Assembly: GCA_036490855.1 (NCBI GenBank)
Contig: DASXDC010000050.1
Location: forward strand, 1 to 42,689
Source of the DNA: Chthoniobacterales bacterium
GTDB taxonomy: Bacteria > Verrucomicrobiota > Verrucomicrobiia > Chthoniobacterales > UBA10450
Reading direction: 5' to 3'
Length of the DNA stretch: 42,689 bases
Below are positions 561 through 42,313 of this stretch, piece after piece (position 1 is the first letter of the stretch; every line of letters begins with the position of its first letter). The notes beneath the pieces were generated by a model, which saw nothing but the letters and a program-made list of their open reading frames with translations, did no database searches and was not told where the DNA came from. The position numbers and the translations under genes were made by a program.

Positions 561-1235
561 ATGAACTCGTTTCCAATTCTCCAGGTCCGCGACCTAACGA
601 AAAGCTATCCAACCGGCGCGGGCCGCTTGACGGTGCTCGAAAAGATTTGCTTCGCGCTCGCGCCGGGCGCGACTTGCGCGATTCTCGGTCCCTCCGGCAG
701 CGGCAAAACCACGCTCCTCGGCCTGGCGGCGGGATTGGATCTGCCGACCTCCGGTTCCGTGCTGCTGAATGGCGTCGACCTCGGCGCGATCGGTGAGGAC
801 GAACGCGCGCGGGTGCGGAACGAGCTGGTCGGTTTTGTCTTCCAGAATTTTCAGCTCATTCCAACACTGACCGCGCTCGAGAACGTGACGGTGCCGCTGG
901 AGTTGCGCGGTGATCGGAGCGCGCGCGTCCTCGGCCGTGAGCTGCTGGAGCGCGTCGGCCTCGGCGAACGAAGCGATCATTATCCGACGCAGCTTTCCGG
1001 CGGCGAACAACAGCGCGTCGCACTCGCGCGCGCTTTTATTAACCGCCCGAAAATACTCTTCGCCGACGAACCGACCGGCAACCTCGATGCCGAGACGAGC
1101 GAGAAGGTGATCGAGATCATGCTTGAGTTGAACCGGACCGCGGGCACCGCACTCGTCCTCGTGACGCACGACGTCGAAGTCGCCCGCCTAACGGAAAAGA
1201 CCATCCGGCTGCGCAACGGAAAGATGATCGAATGA
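561..1235 (+). CDS. ybbA: ABC transporter ATP-binding protein, YbbA/LolD family
   Basis: Walker A GPSGSGKTT, ABC signature LSGGEQQRVA, Walker B ILFADEPTGNLD. ATGA overlap with the downstream permease at 1232-1235. Confidence 0.93.
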   Translation: MNSFPILQVRDLTKSYPTGAGRLTVLEKICFALAPGATCAILGPSGSGKTTLLGLAAGLDLPTSGSVLLNGVDLGAIGEDERARVRNELVGFVFQNFQLIPTLTALENVTVPLELRGDRSARVLGRELLERVGLGERSDHYPTQLSGGEQQRVALARAFINRPKILFADEPTGNLDAETSEKVIEIMLELNRTAGTALVLVTHDVEVARLTEKTIRLRNGKMIE

Positions 1236-3778
1236 CGAGCGGGTTCGCATTCGTCGGCCGCATGGCCTGGCGCGACAGCCGCTCCAGTCGGCGGCGGCTC
1301 CTCCTTTTCTCGATTTCGATTTCGTTAGGCGTAGCCGCCCTGATCGCGATCGGCCTCTTCCGCGCCAGTCTTTCGCAGGCGATCGACGACCAGGCGCGCA
1401 CCCTGCTCGGGGCCGACCTGGTGGTGGAAAGCCCGCGTCCGTTCACGCCCGCGCAGGAAGAAATGCTCCATTCGTTAGGCGAAACTCAGGCGCGTGAAGT
1501 GCGTTTCCGCACCATGGCGGTCTTCCCGAAGTCCGGCGGCACCCGGCTTGTCTCCGTCCGCGCGCTCGGAGGAAATTTTCCCTTCTACGGCAGGATGGAA
1601 ACGACGCCGCCATCGGCCGCGCAGAACTTTCGCAACGGCGTCGAAACCGTGCCGGAAGAAAGCCTGCTCTTCCAATTCCACGCCCGGGTTGGGGATCCGA
1701 TGAAGATCGGCCAGATCACTTTCAAGATCGTGGGTGCCCTGATCAAAATGCCTGGCGAAGCCTCGCCCGCCGCCAGTTTCGCCCCGCGCGTTTACATTCC
1801 GCTGCAGAACCTCGCACAGACCAATCTCCTCCAACCCGGCAGCCTCGCGCGCTATCTCGATTTCGTGAAATTCGCTCCCGGAGCCGATGTCGCGACTGAG
1901 GTGAAAAAACTCGCGCCGCGGATCGAAGCGACCGGACTCGAATATGACACGGTCGCGAAGCGCAAAAAGAATCTCGGCGAAGCACTCGATAATCTCTATC
2001 GCTTTCTCAACCTCGTCGGTTTCATCTCGCTCCTCCTCGGTGCGGTCGGCGTGGCGAGTGCAATCCAGGCGCATCTCCAGCAAAAAATGCGGACGGCCGC
2101 GATTCTGCGCTGCCTCGGCGCCCCCGGCCGGATGACGGTCGCCATTTATCTGCTGCAGGCGATCGCGATGGGTTTGATCGGTGTCGTGACGGGAGCGGGC
2201 ATTGGCCTAACGATCCATCGACTCCTCCCCGCGACCCTGCAGAAATTCATCCCTTTCCCGATCCCGCACATGATCGCCTGGACACCGGTCTGGTCTGGGA
2301 TGCTCGTCGGTCTGCTCGTTTGCATTCTTTTCGCGCTTCCGCCGCTCCTTCGTTTCCGGCGAGTCTCACCGCTTCTCGCTTTGCGGGCGGCGGTGGATGA
2401 AAAAGCCCCGTCCTCCCGACGAGATCCCGTCACCTGGCTCGTCTATCTTGTCATCGCCGCAAGCCTGACGGGATTCGCCATCTGGCAGGCTGATGCGTGG
2501 AGCGACGGCTTGTTTGCCGCAGGCGGATTGGGCATCGCGATCGGCATTCTGCTTGGCATCGCGAAGTTGCTCATCCTGCTCGTTCGCCACCTCCTGCCGG
2601 GACGCTGGAGCTTCGTTCTCCGGCAGGGCCTGGCCAATCTCCATCGACCTCACAATCGCACTTTGCTTCTGACCCTCTCGTTAGGCTTGGGGACTTTTTT
2701 ACTTCTCACGATCTACGTGACGCGCGATGTCCTGCTCACGCAATTCCGCTCGGTCGACGCGCGCGATCAGCCCAATATTTTTCTTTTCGACATCCAGCCG
2801 GAGCAGACGAAAGCCGTCGCTGAACTCGTTAGGCAACAGAAGCTTCCGATCATTCAGGAGGCGTCGATCGTCACGATGCGGCTGGTGGAAGTGAAAGGGC
2901 GCAAGTCCTCCGAAATTCTGAAAGATCCGCAACGGAAGGCGCCGGAATGGGAACTGGAGCGCGAATATCGCTCGACCTACCGGGCGGACCTGAGCGCGAC
3001 GGAGAAGATCGTGGCTGGGAGGTGGATCGGCCATTTCGATTATCATACCGGAGACACCGTGCCGGTTTCGGTCGAGCAGGATATCGCGAAGGATCTTGGC
3101 CTAACGATCGGCGACACGCTGGTTTTCGACATTCAGGGGGTGCCGATCAAGACACGGGTCGCGAGCTTGCGCGAGGTCGATTGGAAGCGTTTTCAAACGA
3201 ACTTCTTCATTGTTTTCCCGACCGGCGTTCTGGAAAACGCTCCGACCTTTAACGTGCTCGTGAGCCGGGTGCCAACGCCGGCCGCCTCCGCCCGCCTGCA
3301 AAATGCGACCGTGGCCAGATTCCCTAACGTCTCGGCGCTCGATCTGACTTCCGTCATCCAAACCGTCGATTCGATCCTAATCAAGGTCGCGCTCGTCATC
3401 CGCATCATGTCGCTCTTCACCGTCGGCACCGGGCTGATTGTGCTCGGGAGCACGATCTGGAGTGGCCGTTATCAAAGGCTGAAGGAGAGCGTGTTGCTGA
3501 GAACGTTAGGCGCCTCGCGCGCCCAGATCTGGAAAATTCTCTGCGCGGAATATCTCTTCCTTGGTCTGCTCGCGAGCGCGACCGGCATTCTGCTCGCCCT
3601 GGCGGCGAGTTGGGCGCTGGCCGTCTTTGCCTTCCGGCTCGATTACACTTTTTCGTTTCTGCCGATCGCGAGCGCGGCGTTGGTCGTGACCGCGCTCACG
3701 GTCGCAATCGGGCTGCTCACGAGTTACGGCGTCGGCTCGACGCCGCCTCTCGCCATCCTGCGCGAGGAGCTGGATTGA
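1232..3778 (+). CDS. ybbP: FtsX-like ABC transporter permease, YbbP-type (two fused permease modules)
   Basis: 848-aa ORF with two blocks of hydrophobic helices separated by large soluble loops (MacB/LolE/FtsX architecture). Translationally coupled to the ATPase. Confidence 0.9.
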   Translation: MTSGFAFVGRMAWRDSRSSRRRLLLFSISISLGVAALIAIGLFRASLSQAIDDQARTLLGADLVVESPRPFTPAQEEMLHSLGETQAREVRFRTMAVFPKSGGTRLVSVRALGGNFPFYGRMETTPPSAAQNFRNGVETVPEESLLFQFHARVGDPMKIGQITFKIVGALIKMPGEASPAASFAPRVYIPLQNLAQTNLLQPGSLARYLDFVKFAPGADVATEVKKLAPRIEATGLEYDTVAKRKKNLGEALDNLYRFLNLVGFISLLLGAVGVASAIQAHLQQKMRTAAILRCLGAPGRMTVAIYLLQAIAMGLIGVVTGAGIGLTIHRLLPATLQKFIPFPIPHMIAWTPVWSGMLVGLLVCILFALPPLLRFRRVSPLLALRAAVDEKAPSSRRDPVTWLVYLVIAASLTGFAIWQADAWSDGLFAAGGLGIAIGILLGIAKLLILLVRHLLPGRWSFVLRQGLANLHRPHNRTLLLTLSLGLGTFLLLTIYVTRDVLLTQFRSVDARDQPNIFLFDIQPEQTKAVAELVRQQKLPIIQEASIVTMRLVEVKGRKSSEILKDPQRKAPEWELEREYRSTYRADLSATEKIVAGRWIGHFDYHTGDTVPVSVEQDIAKDLGLTIGDTLVFDIQGVPIKTRVASLREVDWKRFQTNFFIVFPTGVLENAPTFNVLVSRVPTPAASARLQNATVARFPNVSALDLTSVIQTVDSILIKVALVIRIMSLFTVGTGLIVLGSTIWSGRYQRLKESVLLRTLGASRAQIWKILCAEYLFLGLLASATGILLALAASWALAVFAFRLDYTFSFLPIASAALVVTALTVAIGLLTSYGVGSTPPLAILREELD

Positions 3779-4458
3779 CGAAGCGCGCTCAGTTCGCTTT
3801 TGGTTAGGGGACGCCAGGCGCCGCGCGGCATTTCATCGAGGCGGAGGGGTCCGATCCGGGTCCGGAGGAGGCGTTTCACCTCGTAATCGAGTTCGTAGAA
3901 CATCCGGCGGATCTGTCGGTTCAGGCCCTGTTGCAGGATGACGCGCAATCGGGTGGGGCCAAACTGCTGGATGCTCGTTAGGCGCGCGCGTTTCCCGTCG
4001 AGGAAAATGCCGCTTTGCAGTTTCTCGGATAGCTTTGGATCCCAGCGCCGATCGAGGGTGACTTCGTATTCCTTCTCCACCTTGTAGCGCGGATGAGTGA
4101 GACGCTGGGAAAGGTCGCCATCGCTCGTGAGAAGGAGGAGCCCTTCGGTCTGAGCGTCGAGCCGGCCGACATTGAAGAGCCGGGAGAATTTTGCCGGCAA
4201 GAGATCGTAGATCGTGTCGGTGGCGTGCGGATCGTGCCGGGTGGAAACGAAGCCGGCCGGTTTGTAGAGAGCGATTGTCAGCGTTTCGGCTACCCTAACG
4301 ACACGTCGGTCGACTTTGACATGATCGCTCGCTTCCACCTGCGTGCCGAAATTCGTGCAGGGCTGGCCGTTGAGTGTAACCCGGCCGGCGGCGATCAGCT
4401 CGTCGCAATGCCGGCGCGAGCCGAGCCCGGCGGCAGCGAGAAAACGATTGAGGCGCAC
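3724..4458 (-). CDS. rRNA pseudouridine synthase, RsuA/RluB/RluF family
   Basis: N-terminal S4 domain (MRLNRFLAAAGLGSRRHCDELI) and catalytic motif GRLDAQTEGLLLLTSDGDL. The 3' end overlaps ybbP convergently by 55 nt. Confidence 0.9.
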   Translation of the reverse strand: MRLNRFLAAAGLGSRRHCDELIAAGRVTLNGQPCTNFGTQVEASDHVKVDRRVVRVAETLTIALYKPAGFVSTRHDPHATDTIYDLLPAKFSRLFNVGRLDAQTEGLLLLTSDGDLSQRLTHPRYKVEKEYEVTLDRRWDPKLSEKLQSGIFLDGKRARLTSIQQFGPTRLRVILQQGLNRQIRRMFYELDYEVKRLLRTRIGPLRLDEMPRGAWRPLTKSELSALRQSSSSRRMARGGVEPTP

Positions 4459-5315: not shown

Positions 5316-5324
5316 TGTGTCCGC

Positions 5325-7121
5325 CTAACGACGGTTGCTGAGGAGAACGGTCGTGCCGCAGGTCGTCAGCTCCTCGACGCGCGCGCCGGTCGGATGCAGG
5401 ACTGCGCGCCAATGCGACAGCCGTCGCTCTTCTGCCAGCAGGTAAACGCGATTTGTTCCTGCCCAAGCCTGTTGCAGCATTTTCTCATTGAGAAAAACAT
5501 TGCGCGTCGGCCCGAGGGCCGCGCCTGGAATCGAGGCCGGGTCCTGATCCACCAGATAGAATTTGCGGCCGAGATAAAAGAGCAGGCTGCTCCCGACATG
5601 CATCGGCCCGTCGTACACAATGGTGTCGTTAGGCGCGATTCGCTCCTGGATGAAACCGGCCGCGTCGGCCAGGGAAAAATAGGGGGCCATCCGCGCCACG
5701 CCATCCATCATGTTGAAACCGATCGGCAACATCGCAGCTGCGAGCGCGGTCAGAGCGAGCCGCGGCCGTTCACGAGCGACAAACCAGAGTGCGATGATCG
5801 GAAAGAGAATCAGCGTGCAGCCGATGACGACGAACATCGAGCGGAACCCGAGCCAGGTGGAAATCGGAATCGAAGTAATCGTTCGCCAGGCCGTAGAGCG
5901 GTCGGCGGTTGTGTTCCATCCGCCGCTCGCGTGGTCGAGCAAATAAGGTAACCGCCACGCGACGAATGCCGCCAGCAAGCCAACCGCGAGCACGAGGCTG
6001 ATCCCGGCGAAGCGCGTCCAGCGCGGCATCCGATCCCAGGTCGTCGCGACAAAAATCGCGAACCCGCTCCACATGCTCATCGAATAATAATCCTGGCGCT
6101 GGCCGATGACGAAGAGCGGCAGAAAAACCACCGCCATCCAACAAAGCGGAAGCGCATCGTTGAACTCGATCTCGCGAGGGCGGATCACCCGCCCCCACGC
6201 GAAAATGATCCCAGGCAAAATCAGAAAGGACCACGGAAACCACCACGCGAGATGGAGGGCGAGAAAGGTGCTCCGCGCCACGCTGTCGTAGCTATGTGCG
6301 GCATCCGGCGCGCCCATGAGATGGATGAACCATTCGTGCGCCGTGAAGCTCTCGATGAACCCCGGGTGTTTCCATTCCAGCCAGACGTGCCAGGGCAGCG
6401 CGATGAGGAGAAAAACAGCGATGCCTTCCCAGCGAAGCAGAGCGCGGAAACGCATCCGCGCTTCCCGATAAAAACAGGAAAGCAAAGCGACAATCGCAGC
6501 CGGATAGAGAAAGCCGTGCAAGCTCTTCGTCATGCAGGCAAGCGCGGCGCAAACCCAAAAACCGACGAACCAGCCGCGTCGACCCTGACGCCGTTCGTAG
6601 CCCCGAATCGCGCAGTAGATTGCGCCAGCGACGAAGACGCTGAAGAGCGGCTCCGGCATGATGATCCGGCCGAAAAGGAACATCCCGCAGGAGCCGAGAT
6701 GAATAAGCCCGGCCAGAAATCCGCGCCACGGTCCTCCGAGGCGGTCGCCGATGAGAAACGTAAGTGCGATGGAAGCGAAGGTGGCAAGCGCGATCGGGAG
6801 ACGCGCCGCCGCCGTCGTTAGGCCAAAGGCTTTCAAGGAAATCGCGATCGCCCAGTAGAGGAGCGGCGGCTTTTGCGGCCGCGGGATGCCGTCGTTCGTC
6901 GGCGTGAGCCAGTGCTGCGACTCGAGCATCTCGCGCGCGGCCCCGGCATACTGACCGTCGGTCTCGTTGTAGAGTTCGCCCCAGCCGACTGTCGCGATAT
7001 GCACGAGCGCCGTTAGCCCAAGAAGAAAAAGAAAGAGTGCGCGCCGAATCGGCGGCGGCTTAAGAGCCTGCGGCGGAAGGAAGACCTCGTCGAGACTGAG
7101 AGCGGGATTGCCTGAGGACAT
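5325..7121 (-). CDS. GT-C fold glycosyltransferase, family 39 / ArnT-like (polyprenyl-phosphate-sugar dependent)
   Basis: 598 aa and polytopic. The N-terminal loop [27 protein letters not shown]...PQKPPLLYW is typical of ArnT/PMT-type enzymes. The TAG stop lies inside a copy of the 8-mer motif. Confidence 0.85.
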
Positions 7122-7170
7122 TTTTCGTTAGGCTGGCCTTTCCGGCTTGGTTTTGTCTGCCGCCGGAATT

Positions 7171-12843: not shown

Positions 12844-12910
12844 CGAATCGCGATATTTCCCCCCGGAGCGCTCGCTTGACCCCATCGCTACGCACGGGGA
12901 AACTGCGTCC

Positions 12911-13740: not shown

Positions 13741-13755
13741 GCCTAACGCCTAACG
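13741..13755 (+). repeat. two overlapping copies of the dispersed motif (GCCTAACGCCTAACG) abutting the tRNA 5' end
   Basis: Read directly from the sequence. The final G is also the first base of the tRNA acceptor stem. Confidence 0.9.
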
Positions 13756-13839
13756 GATGGGTGGCAGAGTGGTCTAATGCGCACGCCTGGAAAGCGTGTT
13801 TGCCGCAAGGCAACCAGGGTTCGAATCCCTGCCCATCCG
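13755..13839 (+). tRNA. tRNA-Ser (anticodon GGA), type II with long variable arm; CCA not encoded
   Basis: Acceptor GGATGGG/CCCATCC; D stem GCA/TGC; anticodon stem CACGC/GCGTG with loop CTGGAAA; variable arm TTGCC-GCAA-GGCAA; T arm CAGGG-TTCGAAT-CCCTG; discriminator G. Confidence 0.92.
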
Positions 13840-14538: not shown

Positions 14539-14571
14539 CGTTAGGCGCAATCTGCCGTCTTTTCGTTAGGC
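14539..14571 (+). repeat. two direct copies of CGTTAGGC 25 bp apart, bracketing the spacer between the LbH gene start and the cysS stop
   Basis: Read directly: copies at 14539-14546 and 14564-14571. The second copy contains the cysS TAA stop on the minus strand. Confidence 0.9.
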
Positions 14572-27428: not shown

Positions 27429-27591
27429 CTTGAAACGCCGACGCCTCTCGCGCTGTCGGTAGCCTAACGAATCTTCATCCCAGCCAAAACTTCCGCTCAC
27501 CGCCGTCACTCGGCGAAGGCTCTTTTTTCCAGAAAGCTGCGAGTCCACTTTGTGTCGTCTGCACGAATGAGCTAAAGACAAGCCCAACCTT

Positions 27592-29542: not shown

Positions 29543-29548
29543 GCAGGT

Positions 29549-33759: not shown

Positions 33760-33766
33760 CGCTTCG

Positions 33767-35140: not shown

Positions 35141-35223
35141 CGTCGCGCGCGGCCAGACCCGGGCGCACCAGATAGTAGAGTCGGCGCGGGCGCCCGCAAC
35201 CGACTCGCTCGCCTAACGATCCC

Positions 35224-36812: not shown

Positions 36813-37302
36813 GATGCGGCTGCAAAATTCTCCTGAGTGCGCCAAGCGCGTAGCGGTAGCGGGAAGCAGCGGTGTTTTGCGAAATCTCGAGAACCGCGGC
36901 GATCTCGGCGAAAGTCAGTTCGTTCCAGATTTTCAAGAGCACGACCTCCCGTTGTTCGTTAGGCAGGCGCTCCACCGCCGCGGCCAGCATCTGCTGGCCT
37001 CCATCCAATCCGGTGAATTGCGGCTCGACCTGCTCGGCGCCGTCTTGCGCGGCCGCGGCTTCGCGCCGGTGGCGGCGTTGTTCACTCCGCAAACGATCGA
37101 GCGCGGCGGAGCGGACCGCCGCGTAGAGGAGGGCGCGGTTACTGATCGAATGCTCCCGGCGCCAGAAACGGACGAACGCTTCCTGCACGATGTCTTCCGC
37201 GTCGGCCCGGCAATTCGTCCAGCGGCGCGCGAAAAGAAGAAGGGCCGGCCCGAGCTGGGCAAAACAGGTCTTCCAATCTTCATCATCGTGCGTCTTCTCC
37301 AT
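36805..37302 (-). CDS. ECF-type RNA polymerase sigma-70 family factor
   Basis: Region 2 (AEDIVQEAFVRFWRR) and region 4 (ERLPNEQREVVLLKIWNELTFAEIAAVLEISQNTAASRYRYAL). Confidence 0.92.
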   Translation of the reverse strand: MEKTHDDEDWKTCFAQLGPALLLFARRWTNCRADAEDIVQEAFVRFWRREHSISNRALLYAAVRSAALDRLRSEQRRHRREAAAAQDGAEQVEPQFTGLDGGQQMLAAAVERLPNEQREVVLLKIWNELTFAEIAAVLEISQNTAASRYRYALGALRRILQPHHE

Positions 37303-37353: not shown

Positions 37354-38487
37354 CTAGCGCGCCGGAATTTTTTTCTGCGCCGCCGGCGCGGAACGCAGGG
37401 CGAGGTCGCCATGCCAGAAGGGATCCGCCACGCCTTTTCGGTAGGCGGCGAGGGCCTCGGGCGACGAATTAAGGTGCAGATTGCTGTAGGTCTGGTCTTC
37501 GTTTTGCCAGCGTTCGTGCCAGTAGACGGCCGCTTTCATTCGCGGCAATTTCCTTTCCATGAGAGCAAAGGCGTCCCGGATCCATTCCGCCTTGTCGCCC
37601 GAGTTTGGAAATTCCCCTACGCCCCATTCTGCGATCATGATCGGTTTCGTACGATCGACCCGCGCCATTTCCTCGTAGGGCCATTCGATCAGCGGCGGAA
37701 AATCCACCCACGGCTCTTCCGAAAACTGCTGGCCATAAACACTGAGCCCGAGCCAGTCGACATAGGCGCTTCCGGGATAATAAGCGGCCGCCGAATTCCA
37801 GACATCGACGGGCGAAGAATAGTTATTCGTCTGGAACATCCACTGGATATTATGCGCGCCGCGCGCCCGCACCCGCTCGACGACATAACGAAAAGCGCGC
37901 TTGAAAAGTTCCGGCCCTTCCCACCTTTTCACGGGGCCCGGGATTTTTTTGTTGCCGCCGTAGTAGATGCCCGACCACGGAAACCAGTCGCCGTTCATCT
38001 CGTCGCCAAACGAAACGATCAGCGGATGACCAAAGCCGCGCGCCGCGTCCGCCCAGTCATCGATGTAGCGATTCCAGGTGCCGGCGAGAATCGCGTTGAG
38101 CGAGAAACGGTCGGGACCTTTTTTTTGTTCGTAAGGCCGATCCCAGGGCGACCAAAAAACAAGCGGAAGCGATCCGTGCCGCCAGATCATTTGCAGGTTG
38201 GCGTTCGGGAAATTTTGCTCTCCCCAATAGCTGGAGGAGGCAATGATCGCCTGATGTTTTCCCACCATTTGCTCGAATCCCTCGATCGTCTCGAGCGCAA
38301 CCTCATCCTCCGCCTCGCCGAAATCGATGAATGCGCCGGTGTAGGCGCCCCTCTCCGGAAGGACCACTTCGACCGGGCCGTTGCGATCGATCGAGGGCGC
38401 GACCGCGGCCGGCTTGCCGCAGCCTAACGAAAAGCAAATGACGGCCAGGGCCCCAGCCACCCGGCCGGTGCAGCGGGAATTTCCCAT
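37354..38487 (-). CDS. GH26-like (clan GH-A) glycoside hydrolase lipoprotein
   Basis: ATG at 38487 gives the lipobox ...VICFSLGC. FGDEMNGDWFPWSG resembles the GH26 acid/base motif (HEMNG.WFWW), and IMIAEWGV resembles the nucleophile region. The track ORF (606 aa) is an upstream extension. Confidence 0.8.
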   Translation of the reverse strand: MGNSRCTGRVAGALAVICFSLGCGKPAAVAPSIDRNGPVEVVLPERGAYTGAFIDFGEAEDEVALETIEGFEQMVGKHQAIIASSSYWGEQNFPNANLQMIWRHGSLPLVFWSPWDRPYEQKKGPDRFSLNAILAGTWNRYIDDWADAARGFGHPLIVSFGDEMNGDWFPWSGIYYGGNKKIPGPVKRWEGPELFKRAFRYVVERVRARGAHNIQWMFQTNNYSSPVDVWNSAAAYYPGSAYVDWLGLSVYGQQFSEEPWVDFPPLIEWPYEEMARVDRTKPIMIAEWGVGEFPNSGDKAEWIRDAFALMERKLPRMKAAVYWHERWQNEDQTYSNLHLNSSPEALAAYRKGVADPFWHGDLALRSAPAAQKKIPAR

Positions 38488-41400
38488 CAAACCCGCACCG
38501 GCACAGACGCGGTCCGCTCCAATTTTCCCCAGCCGACCCAGGCGCCCTTGAGCGCGCGGAAGATCGCTTTCCAGATCACATAGCTGAGGAGCGGCCGGTA
38601 AATCAGCCGCATCGGCAGGATACGCCAGGCGTGCCGGATCGGATCGCGTTCCAGGATGCAGGCGAGGGTGGCGAGAATCACATCCATCGCGAGAAAAACG
38701 ATCACGAATGGCAAGACCGCGCCCCAGGCGCCGAAGGGGAGTGAGGCGAGAAGAAGGAAATCGACCAGCGGCGTGATCGCGACGAGCAGGATCTGGAAGA
38801 ACCAGACGCTCGGGAGGCTGAACCAGCCGAGCGCGCCATAACGCCAGTTGAAGACCTTCTCGCGATGTTTCCAGAGGCATTGCAGCGTCCCATACGCCCA
38901 GCGAAAACGTTGCCGTGCGAGCGTGCGCAAAGTCTCGGGCGCTTCCGTCCAGGCAATGGCGTCGGGCGTATAGACAATCCGATTCTCCCCGTGATAAAGC
39001 GAGAGGGTGAGATCGGTATCCTCGGCCAGAGTGTCGAGGCTCAATCCCCCTGAATCCGCGATCGCGGAACGTCGCAAGGCGCTGATCGCGCCCGGCACGA
39101 CCGTGATGCAGTTCCAGCGATCGTAGGCGCGCCGGTCGAGATTGAATCCGCAGGTGTACTCGAGCGATTGGCAACGCGCGATGAAGCTGCGCAGGTTGCC
39201 GACTTTGGCGTGACCGGAAACCGCCGCGACCCGATCGTCGAGCAATGGCTGGACGAGCAAACGCAAAGTGTCGCTCTGCAAATGGGTGTCGGCATCGAGG
39301 AAGATGACGATCTCGTGCTGGAGGAGCGCGAGCCCGCGCCGGAGCGCTTCGGCTTTTCCACGGTTGCTTTGCCTAACGAGTCGGATGCGCCGGTCTTTCT
39401 CCGCGATTTTTTCCACCTCGGCCGCGGTCTCATCCTGCGAACCGTCATCCACCACAAGGATCTCGATTTCGCCGCGATGATCGTTCGCCAGGACTGCGCG
39501 GAGGGTGGCCGCGATCACTTTCTCCTCATTGAAGGCGGCAATCAGGACGCTGACCGGCGGCGAAAATTCCACGCTCGCCGGAGCGATCCGCCGAAAACGC
39601 GCTGCCAAAAGAATCACGAGCAGCGTGCGCAGGACGATCAGGGCCGTCGCGACGATCATGAATGCCCAGAGAAATTCCGCGATCGCGTGAAAGACGCGAA
39701 AGCCGGCGCTGCTCACGAGACGCGGCAGCCGCTGCGTATTTCCGACCGGCGGCATGACCGCGTCGCGCGAACTGCCAATCAGCGTACTCAGAGGAACGAT
39801 CGTGTCGCCACGCGTCCGCAGCCACTCAATGATCCTGGGCAGCGCCGTCACCGTCTGGGAACGATCGCCGCCCGCGTCGTGGAGCAGAATAATGCTGCCA
39901 TCCCGCCGCTGTTGTTTGATCCGTTGCAGGATGACTTCGGCCCCCGGGCGGGCCCAATCCTGCGGGTCGATATTTTCGAGCACGACGAGATAATTCATCT
40001 CGTTCGCGATCCGGAGCGGGGCGAGGTCGGCGAGCGACGACGGGCTCGTATCGGCCGCATAGGGCGGGCGAAAGAGGGTGGTCGAGCGGCCGGTGATCGT
40101 CTCGAGAAGCAACTGGGTCGCGTTCAATTCCAGCTTGATATGCTCCGGCCAGCAAACCGCGAGATCGGGATGGTAATAGGTGTGATTGCCGATCTCGTGT
40201 CCCTCGGCCACAATCCGCCTAACGAGATCGGGATACTTCTCCGCGTTCACCCCGACGAGGAAAAACGTCGCGGTCACGCCGTTGGCCTTGAGCAGATCGA
40301 GAATCCGCGGCGTCCATTTCGGATCGGGACCGTCGTCGAAGGTGAGCGCGACCTGATGCTCCCCACCCGCGCCCTGATGATAGAGGGTGGGAAACTCCGG
40401 AAAACTCTGGTAGCTGGCGTGCAGATAACCATCCTGGCTCAGGCTGATCGTGCGTGCGCCGTCCGCTCGCGTCTCGTCGACATCGACGATCTCGCCGTCG
40501 CCGACATCAGTGATCGTGTCGGTCCCTTTCAACGGCTGGAGGATACTCCGAGTGGCGTCGTTAGGCTGAATCGGCCGCGGAAGATTGAGCGCGTCCCAGA
40601 TCGCCGGATCCTCGGTGCCGAGGCGATAAAGGGCGAAGCCGCCCGCTTTTTCATCATGCAAGGCGTGGAGCTCGTTCAGGAAACTGACGACATCCAGAAA
40701 CGAGACGGAGTGTTCCTTGTCCGCGTCTTCGAAATAAAAATCCGATTCGTGATCCGGCGGACCGACCACGCCGGGTCCGACACCGGCGTTGTTCGCGCGG
40801 CTCATCGCTTCGGGAAAACTGATCGTCTCCGCGCGGTGGGCACCGTTTGTCCAGTCGTAGCCGTAGCTGCCAAGCGCGATCACCCATTGTTGCGGATCCG
40901 CATCGTGGAGGAGCGCGTGGAGCCAGGATTCAAACCAATGCCGCGAAGCAAGCGGACCGGGCGGGTCCGTATCCGACGTCTCGTCGAAAAGGAGTGCGAC
41001 GAAGCGGTCGACGTGATCGGAAAGGGTATCGAAATCGATGTAATCGAGGTCCTGTCCCGGTTGCACGCAGAGCCAGAGCTGGAGACCGGCGGCATGCAAA
41101 CCATCCGCCATTTTCTCGAGCAGCTTCGTGATCTCGTCGCGATAAGCGGGATCGACCTGCTCCCAATCGATCACCACGCCGGCCGCTTTCGCCTCCTCCA
41201 GATGAGCGAGGAGGTTTTGCAAAAAACGATCCTGTCGATCGGGCGGTCCGTGCGCGAGATTCTCGACTGCTTCCGGGAGCCAGTTGTCGCCGATCAGATT
41301 CGTCAGGAGCGGAAGGAGGGCGAGCCCTTTGCGCGCCGCGAGTTTCGGAATTCGGACATCGGCATCGACCTGGAAATTTCCCAGGCCATCGACGAGCGCG

Positions 41401-41834
41401 AACCATTCCGGACAGACGTGGGTGAGTTGGGCGGCATGTTGCTCGAGCGATTTGTAGCTGTAGGGATCGCCGTTGATGTAAAAGCCCATCCGCACTTCGC
41501 CGCCAGTCGATTTATGGGCGATTGCGGCTGTGGCGGCGACGGGCTTCTTCGCTGCCGCGCGTGCGCTGAGGAATTTCTGCCAGAGGGGAACGTTAGGCGG
41601 GAGTTGTCCGGCTGGATTTTTATTCTGGAGCGACTTCAGTTGCCCGCGCAATTGCCGCAAGGTAAAGGGGAGCCGCAACTGCGGAGTAACGAAGAGCGTC
41701 TGGACAAAAAAGATCGCGGCGATGAAAGCCGCCACCCCGGTAAAGAGAAGCGTCAGGCGCAGCCGCGGCCAGCGCCGGCCGGCCGGGTCGGAAAAAATGA
41801 AACCAGTGCGCTCTTTGGGAAAATCCGCGTCCAT
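38487..41834 (-). CDS. tri-domain exopolysaccharide synthase: GH18-like domain + CE4 (NodB) deacetylase + processive family 2 glycosyltransferase
   Basis: 1115 aa. An N-terminal TM is followed by a GH18-like region (GFYINGDPYSYKSL...GVVIDWEQV), then CE4 (ALTFDDGPDPKWTP...GHEIGNHTYYH), a second TM, then GT2 (VLIAAFNEE...VVDDGS...DADT...QRFRWAYG) and C-terminal TMs. Confidence 0.9.
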   Translation of the reverse strand: MDADFPKERTGFIFSDPAGRRWPRLRLTLLFTGVAAFIAAIFFVQTLFVTPQLRLPFTLRQLRGQLKSLQNKNPAGQLPPNVPLWQKFLSARAAAKKPVAATAAIAHKSTGGEVRMGFYINGDPYSYKSLEQHAAQLTHVCPEWFALVDGLGNFQVDADVRIPKLAARKGLALLPLLTNLIGDNWLPEAVENLAHGPPDRQDRFLQNLLAHLEEAKAAGVVIDWEQVDPAYRDEITKLLEKMADGLHAAGLQLWLCVQPGQDLDYIDFDTLSDHVDRFVALLFDETSDTDPPGPLASRHWFESWLHALLHDADPQQWVIALGSYGYDWTNGAHRAETISFPEAMSRANNAGVGPGVVGPPDHESDFYFEDADKEHSVSFLDVVSFLNELHALHDEKAGGFALYRLGTEDPAIWDALNLPRPIQPNDATRSILQPLKGTDTITDVGDGEIVDVDETRADGARTISLSQDGYLHASYQSFPEFPTLYHQGAGGEHQVALTFDDGPDPKWTPRILDLLKANGVTATFFLVGVNAEKYPDLVRRIVAEGHEIGNHTYYHPDLAVCWPEHIKLELNATQLLLETITGRSTTLFRPPYAADTSPSSLADLAPLRIANEMNYLVVLENIDPQDWARPGAEVILQRIKQQRRDGSIILLHDAGGDRSQTVTALPRIIEWLRTRGDTIVPLSTLIGSSRDAVMPPVGNTQRLPRLVSSAGFRVFHAIAEFLWAFMIVATALIVLRTLLVILLAARFRRIAPASVEFSPPVSVLIAAFNEEKVIAATLRAVLANDHRGEIEILVVDDGSQDETAAEVEKIAEKDRRIRLVRQSNRGKAEALRRGLALLQHEIVIFLDADTHLQSDTLRLLVQPLLDDRVAAVSGHAKVGNLRSFIARCQSLEYTCGFNLDRRAYDRWNCITVVPGAISALRRSAIADSGGLSLDTLAEDTDLTLSLYHGENRIVYTPDAIAWTEAPETLRTLARQRFRWAYGTLQCLWKHREKVFNWRYGALGWFSLPSVWFFQILLVAITPLVDFLLLASLPFGAWGAVLPFVIVFLAMDVILATLACILERDPIRHAWRILPMRLIYRPLLSYVIWKAIFRALKGAWVGWGKLERTASVPVRV

Positions 41835-42025
41835 CGCGTTCTTAAGGGGGCGCCTATCTTAGCGCGGAGCGGGCAAATCCCAACTGCGATTTTTTCCCAG
41901 AAGACGCCCGAGCTGAAGATCGGCCCGCGACGTTTCAGGAAAGCCGCGCCTGAGAGCCCGGTCAGCGCAAGCGGATTTTCGAAAACGAAGCGCTCCTGCT
42001 CGCGGGGAAGGAAATTGCGCGGTCG

Positions 42026-42313
42026 TTAGGCAGCGATACTCTGAAAAACTTTCGGCGGCGGGATGTGGATCGATCCGCGATAAAACCAGTCGCGCGGTTG
42101 TGCCGGGCAGTCGGGCGTCGGGCAATGGAGGCGATACGTCCCATCGCGTTCCTGCCAGATGTCGATCATGCGGCCGCTGATGACGCGATCGCAGAGGACG
42201 CAGGCGCGGCGATCATCGAGCGAATACCACTTGCGAAAAGTATCGGCCTCCTGCAGCACGGACAGTTTTTGATCCAAAGCGATGTGGCGTTTCATTAGCC
42301 CTAGGAAAGCCAT
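42026..42313 (-). CDS. small hypothetical protein with four-Cys cluster
   Basis: 95 aa from the ATG at 42313 (the track uses a TTG at 42331). CVLCDR...LHCPTPDC suggests a zinc ribbon. The TAA stop lies inside the 8-mer motif. Confidence 0.55.
   Translation of the reverse strand: MAFLGLMKRHIALDQKLSVLQEADTFRKWYSLDDRRACVLCDRVISGRMIDIWQERDGTYRLHCPTPDCPAQPRDWFYRGSIHIPPPKVFQSIAA

What the first reader, a model, noticed from the sequence alone, without database searches (positions are those of the whole stretch)
593..42031. Hyper-abundant dispersed 9-mer TCGTTAGGC / GCCTAACGA (about 1.4 copies per kb) that ignores gene orientation and reading frame
SEEN (hand count, could be off by a few). The core CGTTAGGC occurs on the + strand 38 times, at 1323, 1473, 2679, 2827, 3504, 3976, 5627, 6816, 7126, 9466, 11346, 13185, 14539, 14564, 16528, 17878, 19007, 19700, 19925, 21105, 21207, 21514, 22650, 23562, 24001, 25490, 28052, 28548, 29537, 31356, 32413, 32724, 33219, 33765, 36957, 40559, 41591 and 42024. 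Its complement GCCTAACG occurs 23 times, at 1186, 2205, 3099, 5323, 8830, 12838, 13741, 13748, 15124, 15697, 18387, 19521, 24156, 27462, 29849, 30957, 32916, 34008, 35211, 35794, 38422, 39371 and 40217. That totals 61 copies.

The naive expectation for one 8-mer on both strands is 2 x 42689 / 65536, about 1.3, or about 1.7 when allowing for roughly 60% GC. Of the 61 copies, 51 extend to the 9-mer (T before, or A after on the other strand). Eight more copies keep CCTAACG but lose the outer G (593, 3323, 4294, 9841, 21991, 28963; 11167 and 18813 on the other strand). Six or more one-mismatch forms (GCCTAACA or TGTTAGGC) also occur.

The flanks are not conserved, so this is not a MITE or REP unit. 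Within genes the sense orientation is balanced (26 vs 27). All four stop-free frames are used: xCG-TTA-GGC Leu-Gly 16 times, GTT-AGG Val-Arg 8, xGC-CTA-ACG Leu-Thr 9, CCT-AAC Pro-Asn 14. Six further copies act as stop codons and 8 are intergenic. TTA and CTA look otherwise rare here by eye; Leu is mostly CTC/CTG/TTG.

ESTABLISHED. This density, two-orientation use and frame independence are what is described for the USS of Pasteurellaceae and the DUS of Neisseriaceae (about one per kb) and for the HIP1 octamer of cyanobacteria.

INFERENCE. The motif is maintained at the DNA level. Candidate explanations are a DNA-uptake signal, a repair- or methylation-driven octamer, or a nucleoid or segregation protein site. 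I know of no description of this motif.
Basis: partly seen in the sequence, partly recalled or inferred. Interest (0 to 1): 0.85.

Follow-up and report, generated by a model that had tools for sequence, protein, structure and literature searches.

The report
Hyper-abundant 9-bp genome tag, shared across phyla
A 9-letter DNA word (TCGTTAGGC) is written into this soil bacterium's genes about 70 times more often than chance allows, has been kept at the same places for long evolutionary times, and the same 8-letter core is equally abundant in an unrelated, cultivable soil phylum; it looks like the species-recognition tags that some bacteria use to take up their own kind's DNA, which are so far accepted in only two bacterial families.

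Summary
CGTTAGGC occurs 61 times (38+/23-) against 0.86 expected. The 9-mer TCGTTAGGC occurs 51 times against 0.17 expected. Inside genes there are 48 copies against 0.89 in synonymous-codon shuffles.

The window is a housekeeping contig of a Chthoniobacterales (Verrucomicrobiota) soil bacterium. The flanks are unrelated, all four stop-free frames are used, and spacing is more even than random.

Syntenic relatives carry the motif at 0.15-0.96 per kb. 27-48% of window sites are shared with the closest relatives, against 13-18% for random 8-mers.

The unexpected result is that the same 8-mer core is dispersed at 0.4-0.8 per kb in Gemmatimonadaceae. This includes the cultured Gemmatirosa kalamazoonensis KBS708 (310 copies in 472 kb of chromosome and megaplasmids). 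A sister genus has none. One sister Chthoniobacterales lineage instead carries AAGATCGACAT at about 1 per kb.

The published KBS708 SMRT methylome lists no methylated motif matching it. I found no replichore polarity and no longer repeat unit.

Best reading (about 0.4): a DUS/USS-like tag that biases horizontal DNA transmission and accumulates by molecular drive. The main rival is an intracellular recognition site. No function has been shown. I found no prior description of the motif.

The parts
1186..1194 (-). CCGTTAGGC; in ABC ATPase ORF 561-1235(+), antisense, GC-CTA-ACG (Leu-Thr)
1322..1330 (+). TCGTTAGGC; in FtsX/MacB-type permease ORF 1232-3778(+), sense, xCG-TTA-GGC (Leu-Gly)
1472..1480 (+). 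TCGTTAGGC; permease ORF 1232-3778(+), sense, Leu-Gly frame
2205..2213 (-). TCGTTAGGC; permease ORF 1232-3778(+), antisense, Leu-Thr frame
2678..2686 (+). TCGTTAGGC; permease ORF 1232-3778(+), sense, Leu-Gly frame
2826..2834 (+). TCGTTAGGC; permease ORF 1232-3778(+), sense, C-GTT-AGG-C (Val-Arg)
3099..3107 (-). TCGTTAGGC; permease ORF 1232-3778(+), antisense, Leu-Thr frame
3503..3511 (+). ACGTTAGGC (8-mer core only); permease ORF, sense, Leu-Gly frame
3975..3983 (+). TCGTTAGGC; pseudouridine synthase ORF 3724-4458(-), antisense, Leu-Thr frame
5323..5331 (-). TCGTTAGGC; its TAG is the stop codon of the PMT-family glycosyltransferase ORF 5325-7121(-)
5626..5634 (+). TCGTTAGGC; PMT-family ORF (-), antisense, G-CCT-AAC-G (Pro-Asn)
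6815..6823 (+). TCGTTAGGC; PMT-family ORF (-), antisense, Leu-Thr frame
7125..7133 (+). TCGTTAGGC; intergenic, forms the 5' arm of a terminator-like hairpin 7127-7151; exact motif also in relative L241
8830..8838 (-). TCGTTAGGC; intergenic / gene boundary
9465..9473 (+). TCGTTAGGC; unknown ORF 8855-9781(-), antisense, Pro-Asn frame; shared with relative L243
11345..11353 (+). TCGTTAGGC; gcvT (-), antisense, Pro-Asn frame; lies in a poorly conserved peptide position
12838..12846 (-). TCGTTAGGC; its complement TAA ends + strand ORF 11440-12843; shared with L241
13184..13192 (+). TCGTTAGGC; chlorite-dismutase-family ORF, sense, Ser-Leu-Gly; relatives have TCGCTCGGC/TCGCTGGGC (synonymous); exact motif in L006, L243, L244
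13741..13749 (-). GCGTTAGGC; intergenic, overlaps the next copy, just upstream of tRNA-Ser
13748..13756 (-). CCGTTAGGC; intergenic, abuts tRNA-Ser(GGA) 13755-13841; shared with L244
14538..14546 (+). TCGTTAGGC; intergenic, direct pair with the copy at 14563; relatives have CGTCAGGC
14563..14571 (+). TCGTTAGGC; its complement TAA is the stop codon of cysS 14566-15963(-); shared with L241, L242
15124..15132 (-). TCGTTAGGC; cysS, sense, Ser-Leu-Gly with the rare TTA codon; exact motif in 10 of 20 aligned relatives, the other 10 encode the same peptide with other Leu codons
15697..15705 (-). CCGTTAGGC; cysS, sense, Pro-Leu-Gly; relatives have CCGCTG...
16527..16535 (+). TCGTTAGGC; boundary between ispF and the inositol-monophosphatase-family ORF; shared with L243, L244
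17877..17885 (+). TCGTTAGGC; DFP (coaB) ORF (-), antisense, Leu-Thr frame; shared with L241-L244
18387..18395 (-). ACGTTAGGC; flavoprotein ORF, sense, Thr-Leu-Gly where distant relatives encode Lys-Leu-Lys (non-synonymous gain); shared with L242-L244
19006..19014 (+). TCGTTAGGC; gmk (-), antisense, Arg-Leu-Thr (synonymous relative to relatives); shared with L244
19521..19529 (-). ACGTTAGGC; yicC-like ORF, sense, Thr-Leu-Gly (conserved peptide); shared with L241-L244
19699..19707 (+). TCGTTAGGC; yicC-like ORF, antisense, Pro-Asn frame; shared with L004, L007, L241, L242, L244
19924..19932 (+). TCGTTAGGC; yicC-like ORF, antisense, Pro-Asn frame; shared with L244
21104..21112 (+). TCGTTAGGC; TPR protein ORF 20359-22788(-), antisense, Pro-Asn frame
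21206..21214 (+). TCGTTAGGC; TPR protein ORF, antisense, Pro-Asn frame; shared with L242, L243
21513..21521 (+). TCGTTAGGC; TPR protein ORF, antisense, Leu-Thr frame
22649..22657 (+). ACGTTAGGC; TPR protein ORF, antisense, Pro-Asn frame
23561..23569 (+). TCGTTAGGC; mutY-like ORF 23467-24477(-), antisense, Pro-Asn frame; shared with L242-L244
24000..24008 (+). TCGTTAGGC; mutY-like ORF, antisense, Arg-Leu-Thr; all four close relatives have the one-off CGTCAGGC
24156..24164 (-). TCGTTAGGC; mutY-like ORF, sense, Val-Arg frame, variable peptide position
25489..25497 (+). TCGTTAGGC; RNase HII/HIII ORF, sense, Ser-Leu-Gly where relatives encode Arg-Leu-Glu
27462..27470 (-). TCGTTAGGC; intergenic, downstream of the HU gene
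28051..28059 (+). ACGTTAGGC; unknown ORF 27592-28509(+), sense, Leu-Gly frame
28547..28555 (+). TCGTTAGGC; unknown ORF 28418-29542(+), sense, Leu-Gly frame
29536..29544 (+). TCGTTAGGC; its TAG is the stop codon of ORF 28418-29542(+)
29849..29857 (-). TCGTTAGGC; ABC-2 permease ORF (-), sense, Leu-Gly frame
30957..30965 (-). TCGTTAGGC; ABC ATPase ORF (-), sense, Val-Arg frame
31355..31363 (+). TCGTTAGGC; ABC ATPase ORF (-), antisense, Pro-Asn frame
32412..32420 (+). TCGTTAGGC; unknown ORF 31748-32827(+), sense, Val-Arg frame
32723..32731 (+). TCGTTAGGC; unknown ORF 31748-32827(+), sense, Leu-Gly frame
32916..32924 (-). TCGTTAGGC; DUF6268 ORF (+), antisense, Pro-Asn frame
33218..33226 (+). TCGTTAGGC; DUF6268 ORF (+), sense, Val-Arg frame
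33764..33772 (+). TCGTTAGGC; its complement TAA is the stop codon of the MFS ORF 33767-35140(-)
34009..34017 (-).
35211..35219 (-). TCGTTAGGC; intergenic / gene boundary
35794..35802 (-). TCGTTAGGC; PDZ protein ORF (-), sense, Leu-Gly frame
36956..36964 (+). TCGTTAGGC; unknown ORF 36613-37323(+), sense, Val-Arg frame
38422..38430 (-). TCGTTAGGC; GH26-like ORF (-), sense, Leu-Gly frame
39371..39379 (-). TCGTTAGGC; deacetylase-GT2 ORF 38487-41834(-), sense, Val-Arg frame
40217..40225 (-). TCGTTAGGC; deacetylase-GT2 ORF, sense, Val-Arg frame
40558..40566 (+). TCGTTAGGC; deacetylase-GT2 ORF, antisense, Pro-Asn frame
41590..41598 (+). ACGTTAGGC; deacetylase-GT2 ORF, antisense, Pro-Asn frame
42023..42031 (+). 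TCGTTAGGC; intergenic / gene boundary

Best explanation
TCGTTAGGC (core CGTTAGGC) is a genome-wide DNA-level recognition tag of a Chthoniobacterales lineage. It is not a repeat element and not a coding or compositional by-product.

The most likely mechanism is the one accepted for DUS and USS. A protein of the horizontal-transfer route binds double-stranded DNA carrying the motif. The most likely candidate is an extracellular, type-IV-pilus-associated receptor of the competence machinery; a donor-side packaging or export factor would work equally well. Fragments that carry the motif are then transmitted and recombined into conspecific genomes more often than motif-less alleles.

Any mutation that turns a near-match into a match therefore spreads (molecular drive), wherever the protein sequence tolerates it. 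Over time this fills genes and spacers at roughly one copy per 0.7 kb.

Specificity sits in a replaceable determinant. This would explain three things: sister lineages carry a different motif or none; the flanking preference differs between lineages ('dialects'); and the same core occurs in some Gemmatimonadaceae, either through transfer of the determinant between the two soil phyla or through some constraint that I cannot name.

Shown here: abundance, DNA-level maintenance, positional conservation, phylogenetic distribution, absence of replichore polarity, and no reported m6A/m4C methylation at the motif.

Inferred only: that the biased step is uptake or transfer, and that a dedicated receptor exists.
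For: (1) Enrichment is about 70-fold over dinucleotide shuffles and about 54-fold over synonymous-codon shuffles. Half of all TTA codons lie in the motif.

(2) Both strands, four frames and unrelated flanks are used. This matches the description of DUES in 10.1101/2025.10.24.684340.

(3) Five of 15 testable coding copies are purely synonymous at conserved SLG/TLG/RLT peptides, and 10 of 15 lie at poorly conserved peptide positions. This is the 'permissive position' rule reported for DUES.

(4) One-off variants are themselves enriched, and orthologous sites in relatives are mostly one-off (CGTCAGGC, CGTTGGGC, CGTTAGGG). A stepwise drive would produce this pattern.

(5) 27-48% of window sites are exact in relatives at ~77% nucleotide identity, against 13-18% for random 8-mers. 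70-90% of the relatives' sites are also motif in the window. The cysS site at 15124 is retained in 10 of 20 lineages.

(6) Density declines in graded fashion with phylogenetic distance, from 1.43 through 0.96-0.5 and 0.28-0.15 to 0 per kb. A sister lineage (L076) carries a different dispersed motif, AGATCGACA, 21 times against 0.25 expected.

(7) Flank 'dialects' differ: T at -1 in 84-89% of Chthoniobacterales copies, against a purine at +1 in 81% of Gemmatirosa copies.

(8) Spacing is more even than random (coefficient of variation 0.70 against 0.98, p=0.002; largest gap 1972 bp).

(9) There is no replichore polarity.

(10) Context from the literature: soil Verrucomicrobia and Gemmatimonadetes populations recombine, and ComEC loci track low linkage (PMC7305173). 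A 2026 preprint reports that even HIP1 enhances transformation. A PilT-family ATPase lies in the Gemmatimonadaceae recA locus; this is weak support.
Against: - No competence, uptake or receptor gene was identified for this organism. The window holds only housekeeping genes, and I could not read whole genomes.
- Natural transformation has not been reported for Chthoniobacterales or Gemmatimonadaceae in the literature I could search.
- One hallmark of known DUES is missing in the window. About half of known DUES lie in terminators, often as inverted pairs. The window has no inverted pair, and only 3 copies touch terminator-like hairpins.
- A modest strand imbalance (maximum-likelihood estimate about 0.65, p about 0.03) is not predicted by the model.
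- An identical 8-mer core in two phyla needs an extra assumption, namely transfer of the determinant.
- Even spacing and positional conservation fit an intracellular function equally well.
Confidence: 0.4

Rival explanations
1. The motif is an intracellular recognition site under direct selection. An abundant DNA-binding or DNA-processing protein needs a site every 1-2 kb. Candidates are a non-polar 'self' marker that modulates a nuclease or helicase, a strand-discrimination or nicking site for repair, or a nucleoid or condensin loading site. The determinant gene would be exchangeable between lineages.
For: Spacing is significantly even and the largest gap is only 1972 bp. Sites are conserved over deep divergence. 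The motif is present at similar density on the chromosome and both megaplasmids of KBS708. A slight strand imbalance exists. There are no terminator-associated inverted pairs.
Against: No candidate protein was found. Direct selection would have to act separately on each of an estimated several thousand sites (my extrapolation from the sampled densities), each with a very small effect. Closely related lineages do without the motif (L045, R. agri L246, L236-L240) or use a different one (L076). That is hard to reconcile with an essential housekeeping role. Enriched one-off variants fit a drive better than a binding threshold.
Confidence: 0.28
2. The motif is driven by methylation and mismatch repair, as was once proposed for HIP1. 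A methyltransferase marks the motif, and a Vsr-like very-short-patch repair converts mismatches in near-cognate sequences to the cognate sequence.
For: The motif contains a CpG. C>T one-off variants at positions 2 and 9 are among the commonest. R-M and orphan methyltransferase genes move readily between phyla, which would explain the patchy distribution. SMRT sequencing does not detect m5C reliably (my own knowledge).
Against: The KBS708 SMRT methylome reports only RGATCY, ATGCAC and CCAGN7TCA, with no motif overlapping CGTTAGGC (PMC3974934). Creating the motif from the orthologous states seen in relatives (CTC/CTG to TTA, TCA to TTA) needs C>T, G>A and C>A changes at positions a T:G-specific repair cannot make. 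TTGTTAGGC, the deamination product such a repair should remove, is enriched rather than depleted. The motif is not palindromic, and a contiguous 8-9 bp specificity is unusual for methyltransferases (my own knowledge).
Confidence: 0.1
3. The motif is a Chi-like or KOPS-like polar element, read by RecBCD/AddAB or FtsK and oriented with replication.
For: It is an over-represented non-palindromic 8-mer. The window shows 62% on one strand. A mixture model over independent loci prefers q of about 0.65 over 0.5 (delta log-likelihood 2.3).
Against: q=0.8 is rejected (delta log-likelihood -6.9) and q=0.75 is disfavoured (-2.8). The more distant syntenic relatives give 21:18. KBS708 gives 164:146 overall. 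Per-window fractions (.63 .62 .32 .62 .48 .37 .49 .64) are unrelated to the sign of GC skew around the 1.1-Mb replicon. Enrichment of about 70-fold is far above what I recall for known Chi sites. Specificity changes between close lineages.
Confidence: 0.06
4. The copies are remnants or targets of a mobile element (MITE/REP/IS ends).
For: On KBS708 plasmid 1, a 96-bp hairpin element present in about 20 copies ends in inverted copies of the motif.
Against: In the window the flanks are unrelated. 47 of 61 copies lie inside ORFs in four frames. Many were made by synonymous substitutions at orthologous codons. No inverted pairs occur in the window. The hairpin element is confined to one region of one plasmid.
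Confidence: 0.02

Closest known systems
DNA uptake enhancing sequences: DUS (Neisseriaceae, GCCGTCTGAA-type, receptor ComP) and USS (Pasteurellaceae, AAGTGCGGT-type, predicted receptor ComN)
   Same: - It is a non-palindromic 9-mer with an invariant core.
- Density is about 1 per kb.
- Both orientations are used, and copies lie inside genes in all stop-free frames.
- Copies sit at permissive protein positions.
- One-off variants are enriched.
- Flank preferences and whole motifs are lineage-specific ('dialects').
- Positions are partly conserved among relatives.
- Spacing is even.
   Different: - No uptake specificity, competence or receptor has been shown.
- There are no inverted-repeat pairs in terminators in the window, whereas about half of DUES lie in terminators.
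- It occurs in phyla where DUES are unknown; as of 2025 the literature restricts them to two families.
- The same core is shared by two phyla, which has no precedent among DUES.
HIP1 (GCGATCGC) of cyanobacteria
   Same: It is a hyper-abundant octamer, enriched tens-fold or more. It is evolutionarily conserved, evenly or quasi-periodically spaced, and independent of reading frame. Its function was long unknown. A 2026 preprint now links HIP1 to transformation.
   Different: HIP1 is a palindrome and is methylated by the dedicated methyltransferases DmtA and DmtC. CGTTAGGC is asymmetric and is absent from the list of methylated motifs in KBS708. HIP1 is nearly phylum-wide, whereas this motif is patchy within families.
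Chi and KOPS / architecture-imparting octamers
   Same: These are also over-represented asymmetric octamers read by a DNA-translocating enzyme.
   Different: Those are strongly co-oriented with replication and, as I recall, only a few-fold enriched. Here no replichore polarity is seen and enrichment is about 70-fold.
REP/BIME and MITE repeats
   Same: They have many dispersed copies. On one Gemmatirosa plasmid region the motif forms the ends of a 96-bp hairpin repeat.
   Different: REP and MITE units are longer, palindromic, intergenic and have conserved flanks. In the window the conserved unit is only 8-9 bp and lies mostly inside genes.

Membership tests
DUES (DUS/USS) | Short asymmetric motif at about 1 per kb, tens-fold or more above expectation, genome-wide | tested here: met
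   61 against 0.86 expected in the window. 48 against 0.89 in codon shuffles. Also enriched in non-syntenic contigs and in relatives.
DUES (DUS/USS) | Both orientations, no replication polarity | tested here: met
   Window 38:23. The more distant syntenic relatives (L001-L008, L029) give 21:18. KBS708 gives 164:146 with no relation to GC-skew sign. A modest imbalance (q about 0.65) cannot be excluded.
DUES (DUS/USS) | Intragenic copies avoid stop frames and sit at permissive or compatible peptide positions | tested here: met
   Four stop-free frames are used. 5 of 15 copies are synonymous at conserved peptides and 10 of 15 are at variable positions.
DUES (DUS/USS) | Lineage-specific dialects of one core, and different motifs in related clades | tested here: met
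   T at -1 in Chthoniobacterales against a purine at +1 in Gemmatimonadaceae. L076 carries AAGATCGACAT instead.
DUES (DUS/USS) | A large fraction lie in transcription terminators, often as inverted-repeat pairs | tested here: not met
   There is no inverted pair within 100 bp among the 61 copies. Only 3 copies touch terminator-like hairpins. In KBS708 a few inverted pairs form the base of a 96-bp hairpin repeat.
DUES (DUS/USS) | Competence machinery and a motif-specific receptor (ComP or ComN-type minor pilin) encoded in the genome | not tested
   Whole genomes could not be read. The window has none. The only hint is a PilT-family ATPase in Gemmatimonadaceae locus L184.
DUES (DUS/USS) | Motif-dependent DNA uptake or transformation | not testable with these tools
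   This needs an experiment. G. kalamazoonensis KBS708 is cultured (PMC3974934).
HIP1-type highly iterated palindrome | Palindromic octamer | tested here: not met
   The reverse complement of CGTTAGGC is GCCTAACG, so it is not a palindrome.
HIP1-type highly iterated palindrome | The motif is the substrate of cognate DNA methyltransferases | tested here: inconclusive
   The KBS708 SMRT methylome lists only RGATCY, ATGCAC and CCAGN7TCA, so nothing is reported at the motif. m5C is not excluded, and no methylome exists for the window's organism.
HIP1-type highly iterated palindrome | Even or quasi-periodic spacing and evolutionary conservation | tested here: met
   Coefficient of variation 0.70 against 0.98, p=0.002. 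Sites are shared 27-48% against 13-18% background.
Chi / KOPS polar octamers | Strong strand skew (about 75% or more) that switches at ori and ter | tested here: not met
   q=0.8 is rejected at delta log-likelihood -6.9. KBS708 plasmid 1 window fractions are unrelated to GC-skew sign, and the total is 53%.
REP / MITE | A longer conserved, usually palindromic, intergenic unit | tested here: not met
   Flanks are unconserved beyond position -1. 47 of 61 copies lie wholly within ORFs.

The most novel reading that the evidence does not exclude
Two unrelated, globally abundant soil phyla share one and the same 8-bp recognition code. These are Verrucomicrobiota of the Chthoniobacterales/Udaeobacter group and Gemmatimonadaceae, including Gemmatirosa. 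The specificity determinant for DNA uptake or transfer would have been exchanged between them. Hyper-abundant 'genome tags' would then be a widespread, fast-switching system in uncultured soil bacteria: different tags in sister lineages, and the same tag across phyla. This would be the first DUES-like system outside Proteobacteria, and the first cross-phylum one, and it is testable in a cultured strain.
Probability: 0.2. Interest if true: 0.95.

Novelty: new variant of a known kind. Interest (0 to 1): 0.82.

Why it matters
Sequence-tagged self-recognition of DNA (DUS/USS) is currently accepted only in Neisseriaceae and Pasteurellaceae, with HIP1 in cyanobacteria recently proposed as a third case. 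Here a tag with the same genomic anatomy appears in soil lineages that are very abundant and almost uncultured, and whose mechanisms of recombination are unknown.

The tag is strong enough to force the rarest Leu codon into conserved genes of a 60% GC genome and a 73% GC genome. It is conserved at orthologous sites across deep divergence. It is replaced by a different tag in a sister lineage. And it is shared by two phyla.

If it governs DNA uptake or transfer, it would define who exchanges genes with whom in soil, and it would give a sequence-based handle for delivering DNA into these organisms.

Whatever its function, three practical points follow:
- It offers a candidate marker for binning and taxonomic assignment of soil contigs.
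- It gives a ready experimental system in Gemmatirosa kalamazoonensis KBS708.
- It gives a clear comparative design, motif-rich against motif-poor sisters in two phyla, to find the determinant gene.

Tried and rejected
- **Chance, composition or codon usage.** Rejected by dinucleotide and synonymous-codon shuffles.
- **A longer repeat unit.** Rejected by the flank logo.
- **Viral carriers.** A scan of 2.9 million viral contigs for a direct pair of the 9-mer gave 34 hits. All were local tandem repeats and none was motif-dense.
- **Exact look-up of the window's CysS** found no other contig. The window is itself a complete 42,689-bp contig, and the nearest CysS is 86% identical, so no strain-level comparison was possible.
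- **Literature.** No paper holds the motif other than as part of primers. Nothing turned up on uptake sequences in Verrucomicrobia or Gemmatimonadetes, nor on competence in Udaeobacter or in a Gemmatimonadota genomics paper.
- **Taxonomy of the 58%-GC contig L193 and of L179** by exact cluster look-up returned no organism names. Their assignment rests on GC content and flank dialect only.
- **GC skew** is too weak in the window to define a replication direction.
- **Gene orientation** explains the local strand heterogeneity in KBS708 only weakly (r=0.40, n=10).
- **The 21-kb phage-like element of KBS708** (CP007127) and un-prefixed accessions are not in the collections.
- **Other frequent 8-mers in relatives.** Those in L037 and L008 turned out to be 7-bp tandem arrays, not dispersed motifs.
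- **Rfam** found only tRNA-Ser in the window. The conserved block at 27027-27340 is the HU gene, not an RNA.

Full report
**Observation.** The core CGTTAGGC occurs 61 times in the 42,689-bp window, 38 on the + strand and 23 on the - strand. Dinucleotide-preserving shuffles give 0.86 +/- 0.90 copies, with a maximum of 4. The 9-mer TCGTTAGGC occurs 51 times against 0.17 expected. It is the most frequent 8-mer in the window by a wide margin. The 7-mers CCTAACG and GCCTAAC occur 69 times each, so there are 8 truncated copies. A logo of the 61 copies shows no conservation beyond T at position -1 (51 of 61) and a weak depletion of C at +1. This is an 8-9 bp unit, not part of a longer repeat.

**What the window is.** Pfam assignments show an ordinary housekeeping stretch: cysS, ispF, gcvT, gmk, coaBC, mutY-like, RNase HII/HIII, HU, ABC transporters and glycosyltransferases. 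There is one tRNA-Ser. G+C is 60%. The window is a whole contig. CysS relatives in GTDB genomes are all Verrucomicrobiota of the order Chthoniobacterales, several of them titled Candidatus Udaeobacter. The nearest CysS in the large protein collection is 86% identical.

**DNA-level maintenance.** I used ORF-based gene models chosen by GC3 periodicity; these are approximate. On them, 47 copies lie wholly inside ORFs, 5 supply a stop codon (TAG on the motif strand, TAA on the complement) and 9 are intergenic. The frames are xCG-TTA-GGC 16, C-GTT-AGG-C 9, GC-CTA-ACG 9 and G-CCT-AAC-G 13. Sense against antisense is 25:22. Shuffling synonymous codons within each gene gives 0.89 +/- 1.0 copies against 48 observed. 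17 of the 35 TTA codons and 9 of the 34 CTA codons in the window are inside the motif. Gene boundaries and spacers hold 14 of 61 copies, although roughly 7% of the window is non-coding. Spacing is more even than random placement. The coefficient of variation is 0.70 against 0.98 +/- 0.12 (p=0.002). The largest gap is 1972 bp against a random median of 3102 bp (p=0.008). Among one-mismatch variants of the 9-mer, only the outer positions and C2>T are populated: T1>A 6, T1>C 3, C2>T 5, C9>T 4 and C9>G 3. The core GTTAGG is almost invariant.

**Relatives.** Sixteen GTDB relatives are syntenic with window 10.5-27.3 kb at about 70% nucleotide identity. Four closer ones (CysS 83-86%, about 77% nucleotide identity) were fetched by exact protein look-up. 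Motif density falls with distance:
- window 1.43 per kb;
- L242 0.96, L244 0.89, L243 0.56, L241 0.51, L003 0.51;
- L029 and L002 0.28;
- L006-L008 and L001 about 0.2;
- L004 0.15;
- 0-0.05 in L005, L009-L012, L020, L034, L045, L076 and in nearly all more distant Verrucomicrobiota and other phyla, where at most a single copy occurs.

Positions are conserved. 27%, 44%, 47% and 48% of window sites are exact in L241, L242, L243 and L244, against 13-18% for random 8-mers in the same alignments. 70-90% of the relatives' own sites are also motif in the window. The non-shared orthologous sites are mostly one substitution away (CGTCAGGC, CGTTGGGC, CGTTAGGG). In more distant relatives they are ordinary synonymous versions such as TCGCTCGGC or TCGCTGGGC. 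The site in cysS at 15124 (Ser-Leu-Gly, TCG TTA GGC) is exact in 10 of 20 aligned relatives, and the other 10 encode the same peptide with common Leu codons. Of 15 coding sites that could be scored, 5 sit on conserved peptides and differ only synonymously. The other 10 sit at poorly conserved positions where the window's peptide differs, for example Thr-Leu-Gly for Lys-Leu-Lys at 18387. So there is a force acting on DNA sequence that is strong enough to hold the rarest Leu codon and to change amino acids where these are tolerated.

**Genome-wide, and in a second phylum.** I scanned metagenome contigs for a direct pair of the 9-mer. I removed the seeding clusters before counting. After that, contigs of 55-64% G+C still carry 0.24 dispersed copies per kb, contigs of 64-70% carry 0.26 and contigs of 70% or more carry 0.51. 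Contigs below 55% carry 0.02-0.03. The 58-62% contigs (L145, L147, L158, L159, L178, L193, L204, L208) hold genes unrelated to the window. They have T at -1 in 50 of 56 dispersed copies, the same 'dialect' as the window. This argues that the motif is genome-wide in that lineage; it is an inference, because the taxon was not confirmed.

The high-GC contigs were unexpected. L184 (67% G+C, 11 copies in 13.6 kb) carries a recA whose nearest named relatives are Gemmatimonadaceae at 90-97% identity. L132 (75% G+C, 8 copies in 6 kb) is nearest to Gemmatirosa kalamazoonensis.

The cultured type strain KBS708 has the motif:
- 17 copies in 22 kb of chromosome against 0.25 expected;
- 0.58-0.82 per kb in eight 50-kb samples around the 1.1-Mb plasmid 1;
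- 0.40 per kb at the start of plasmid 2.

That is 310 copies in 472 kb. Extrapolated to the 7.5-Mb genome this would be roughly 5,000 copies; that figure is my extrapolation, not a count.

The syntenic locus of the related genus Roseisolibacter agri has none, not even GTTAGG. Within Gemmatimonadaceae the distribution is patchy: L235 (RecA 97% to L184) has 15 copies in 21 kb, while L236-L240 (RecA 91-92%) have 2-3.

In Gemmatirosa the -1 position is G/C/T and +1 is a purine in 81% of copies, so the core is shared but the flank preference differs. The frames are dominated by xCG-TTA-GGC (110) and G-CCT-AAC-G (65), with 107 of 310 copies outside my crude ORF calls.

**Other tags in other lineages.** A sister Chthoniobacterales genome (L076, CysS 69%) has no CGTTAGGC. 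It carries AGATCGACA 21 times in 21 kb against 0.25 expected (consensus AAGATCGACAT), dispersed, on both strands, with unrelated flanks. Two distant genomes recovered by the same CysS search, one titled Verrucomicrobiota and one only 'bacterium' (L060, L073), carry GCGCGGCA at 0.9-1.5 per kb (24 against 2.6 expected in L060). Most lineages surveyed have no such motif.

**Tests of mechanisms.**

*Polarity.* The window is 62% on one strand, but the more distant syntenic relatives total 21:18. A two-orientation mixture model over 14 loci gives q of about 0.65. That is delta log-likelihood 2.3 over 0.5, and q=0.8 is rejected by 6.9. KBS708 totals 164:146. Per-window fractions are .63 .62 .32 .62 .48 .37 .49 .64 (heterogeneity p=0.03). 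They show no relation to the sign of the weak GC skew and only a weak relation to gene orientation. A Chi- or KOPS-like polar element is therefore unlikely.

*Methylation.* The published SMRT methylome of KBS708 lists three m6A motifs (RGATCY, ATGCAC, CCAGN7TCA) and nothing overlapping CGTTAGGC (PMC3974934). m5C remains untested. The substitutions needed to make the motif from the orthologous states (C>T, G>A and C>A within TTA) are not those a T:G-specific short-patch repair produces. The deamination product TTGTTAGGC is enriched, not depleted.

*Mobile element.* This is excluded for the window by the flanks and the coding context.

*Terminators.* The window has no inverted motif pair, and only 3 copies touch terminator-like hairpins. 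About half of known DUES lie in terminators (10.1101/2025.10.24.684340).

*Viruses.* No motif-dense viral contig was found.

**Interpretation.** The anatomy is that of a DNA uptake enhancing sequence:
- density, both orientations, tolerated frames and permissive positions;
- enriched near-matches;
- dialects and tag replacement between lineages;
- partial positional conservation and even spacing.

A process that favours transmission of motif-bearing alleles (biased uptake by a competence receptor, or biased packaging or export) followed by homologous recombination explains two features that direct selection explains poorly. First, an estimated several thousand sites are maintained, each with negligible individual effect. 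Second, close relatives can lack the tag or carry another. General support comes from evidence that abundant soil bacteria, Verrucomicrobia and Gemmatimonadetes among them, recombine, with ComEC loci tracking low linkage (PMC7305173). A 2026 preprint also reports that even HIP1 enhances transformation.

Against this reading:
- no competence or receptor gene has been tied to the motif;
- the terminator hallmark is missing;
- the identical core in two phyla needs transfer of the determinant.

I therefore give the transmission-tag model about 0.4. An intracellular recognition site under selection gets about 0.28, m5C/repair drive about 0.1, a polar Chi-like site about 0.06 and a mobile-element origin about 0.02. 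The rest is unassigned.

**Novelty.** Two full-text searches for the motif found only primers. As of late 2025 the literature confines DUES to Neisseriaceae and Pasteurellaceae. The phenomenon belongs to the known class of hyper-abundant dispersed oligomers. It is new in sequence and in host phyla, and it lacks terminator pairing. Above all, one core is shared by two phyla while sister lineages differ. A cultured carrier (KBS708) makes it directly testable.

**Caveats.**
- Gene models are ORF-based.
- Taxon names are those in record titles.
- Only 472 kb of KBS708 and about 21 kb per relative were read.
- The metagenome loci were selected by a seeded pattern; I removed the seed clusters before counting.
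- Replichore inference on the plasmid rests on a weak GC skew.

Noticed in passing
L076:1-21407 (Chthoniobacterales MAG SMAG_U11660, syntenic with window 10.5-27.3 kb): A sister lineage has no CGTTAGGC. It carries a different dispersed motif, AAGATCGACAT (AGATCGACA 21 times against 0.25 expected), on both strands with unrelated flanks. It looks like the same kind of tag with another specificity.
   Followed up: partly
L060:1-16446 and L073:1-13629 (two distant genomes recovered by the CysS search, CysS 51% identical to the window's; L073 is titled Verrucomicrobiota, L060 only 'bacterium'): GCGCGGCA(A) is dispersed at 0.9-1.5 per kb (24 against 2.6 expected in L060), on both strands with unrelated flanks. 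This may be a third hyper-abundant tag.
   Followed up: partly
L254:97-16200 (G. kalamazoonensis plasmid 1, about 840-857 kb): About 20 copies of a 96-bp hairpin element (folding energy -62.9 kcal/mol, z -4). In several copies its two ends are inverted copies of the motif (GCCTAACG...CGTTAGGC). It may belong to the 53-kb tandem-repeat region mentioned in the genome paper.
   Followed up: partly
L037:269-4560 and L008:2760-2890, 9322-9450: Intergenic blocks of 7-bp tandem repeats, (ACGATTC)n and (AATGACG)n, arranged as facing inverted arrays. These are unrelated to the dispersed motif. Function unknown.
   Followed up: no
L255:25342-25436; L253:35994-36031; L116:5857-5948; L146:1865-1908; L184:839-918: Tandem arrays of the motif with periods of 12, 15, 14, 12 and 18 bp. 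The L255 array reads as an in-frame GCG-TTA-GGC-GCG (Ala-Leu-Gly-Ala) repeat inside a long ORF.
   Followed up: partly
window:10861-12936: The 691-aa minus-strand ORF is probably over-extended. The GCV_T domains occupy only residues 336-689, and relatives annotate a 366-aa gcvT with a separate 260-275-aa gene on the other strand between it and the chlorite-dismutase-family gene. The + strand ORF 11440-12843 ends in the TAA of the motif copy at 12838.
   Followed up: partly
window:13741-13841: Two overlapping motif copies (GCCTAACGCCTAACG) abut the 5' end of tRNA-Ser(GGA). A second direct pair (14538, 14563) fills the spacer downstream of cysS.
   Followed up: no
window:27027-27340: This is the most conserved DNA block among relatives (about 80% against about 70% elsewhere). 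It is the HU (Bac_DNA_binding) gene, not an RNA.
   Followed up: yes
L245 and L247-L255 (G. kalamazoonensis): In this 73% G+C genome, 110 of 310 motif copies place a TTA (Leu) codon in frame. TTA is normally a very rare codon at this G+C content, so the tag may account for a sizeable share of this genome's TTA codons; total TTA codons there were not counted.
   Followed up: partly
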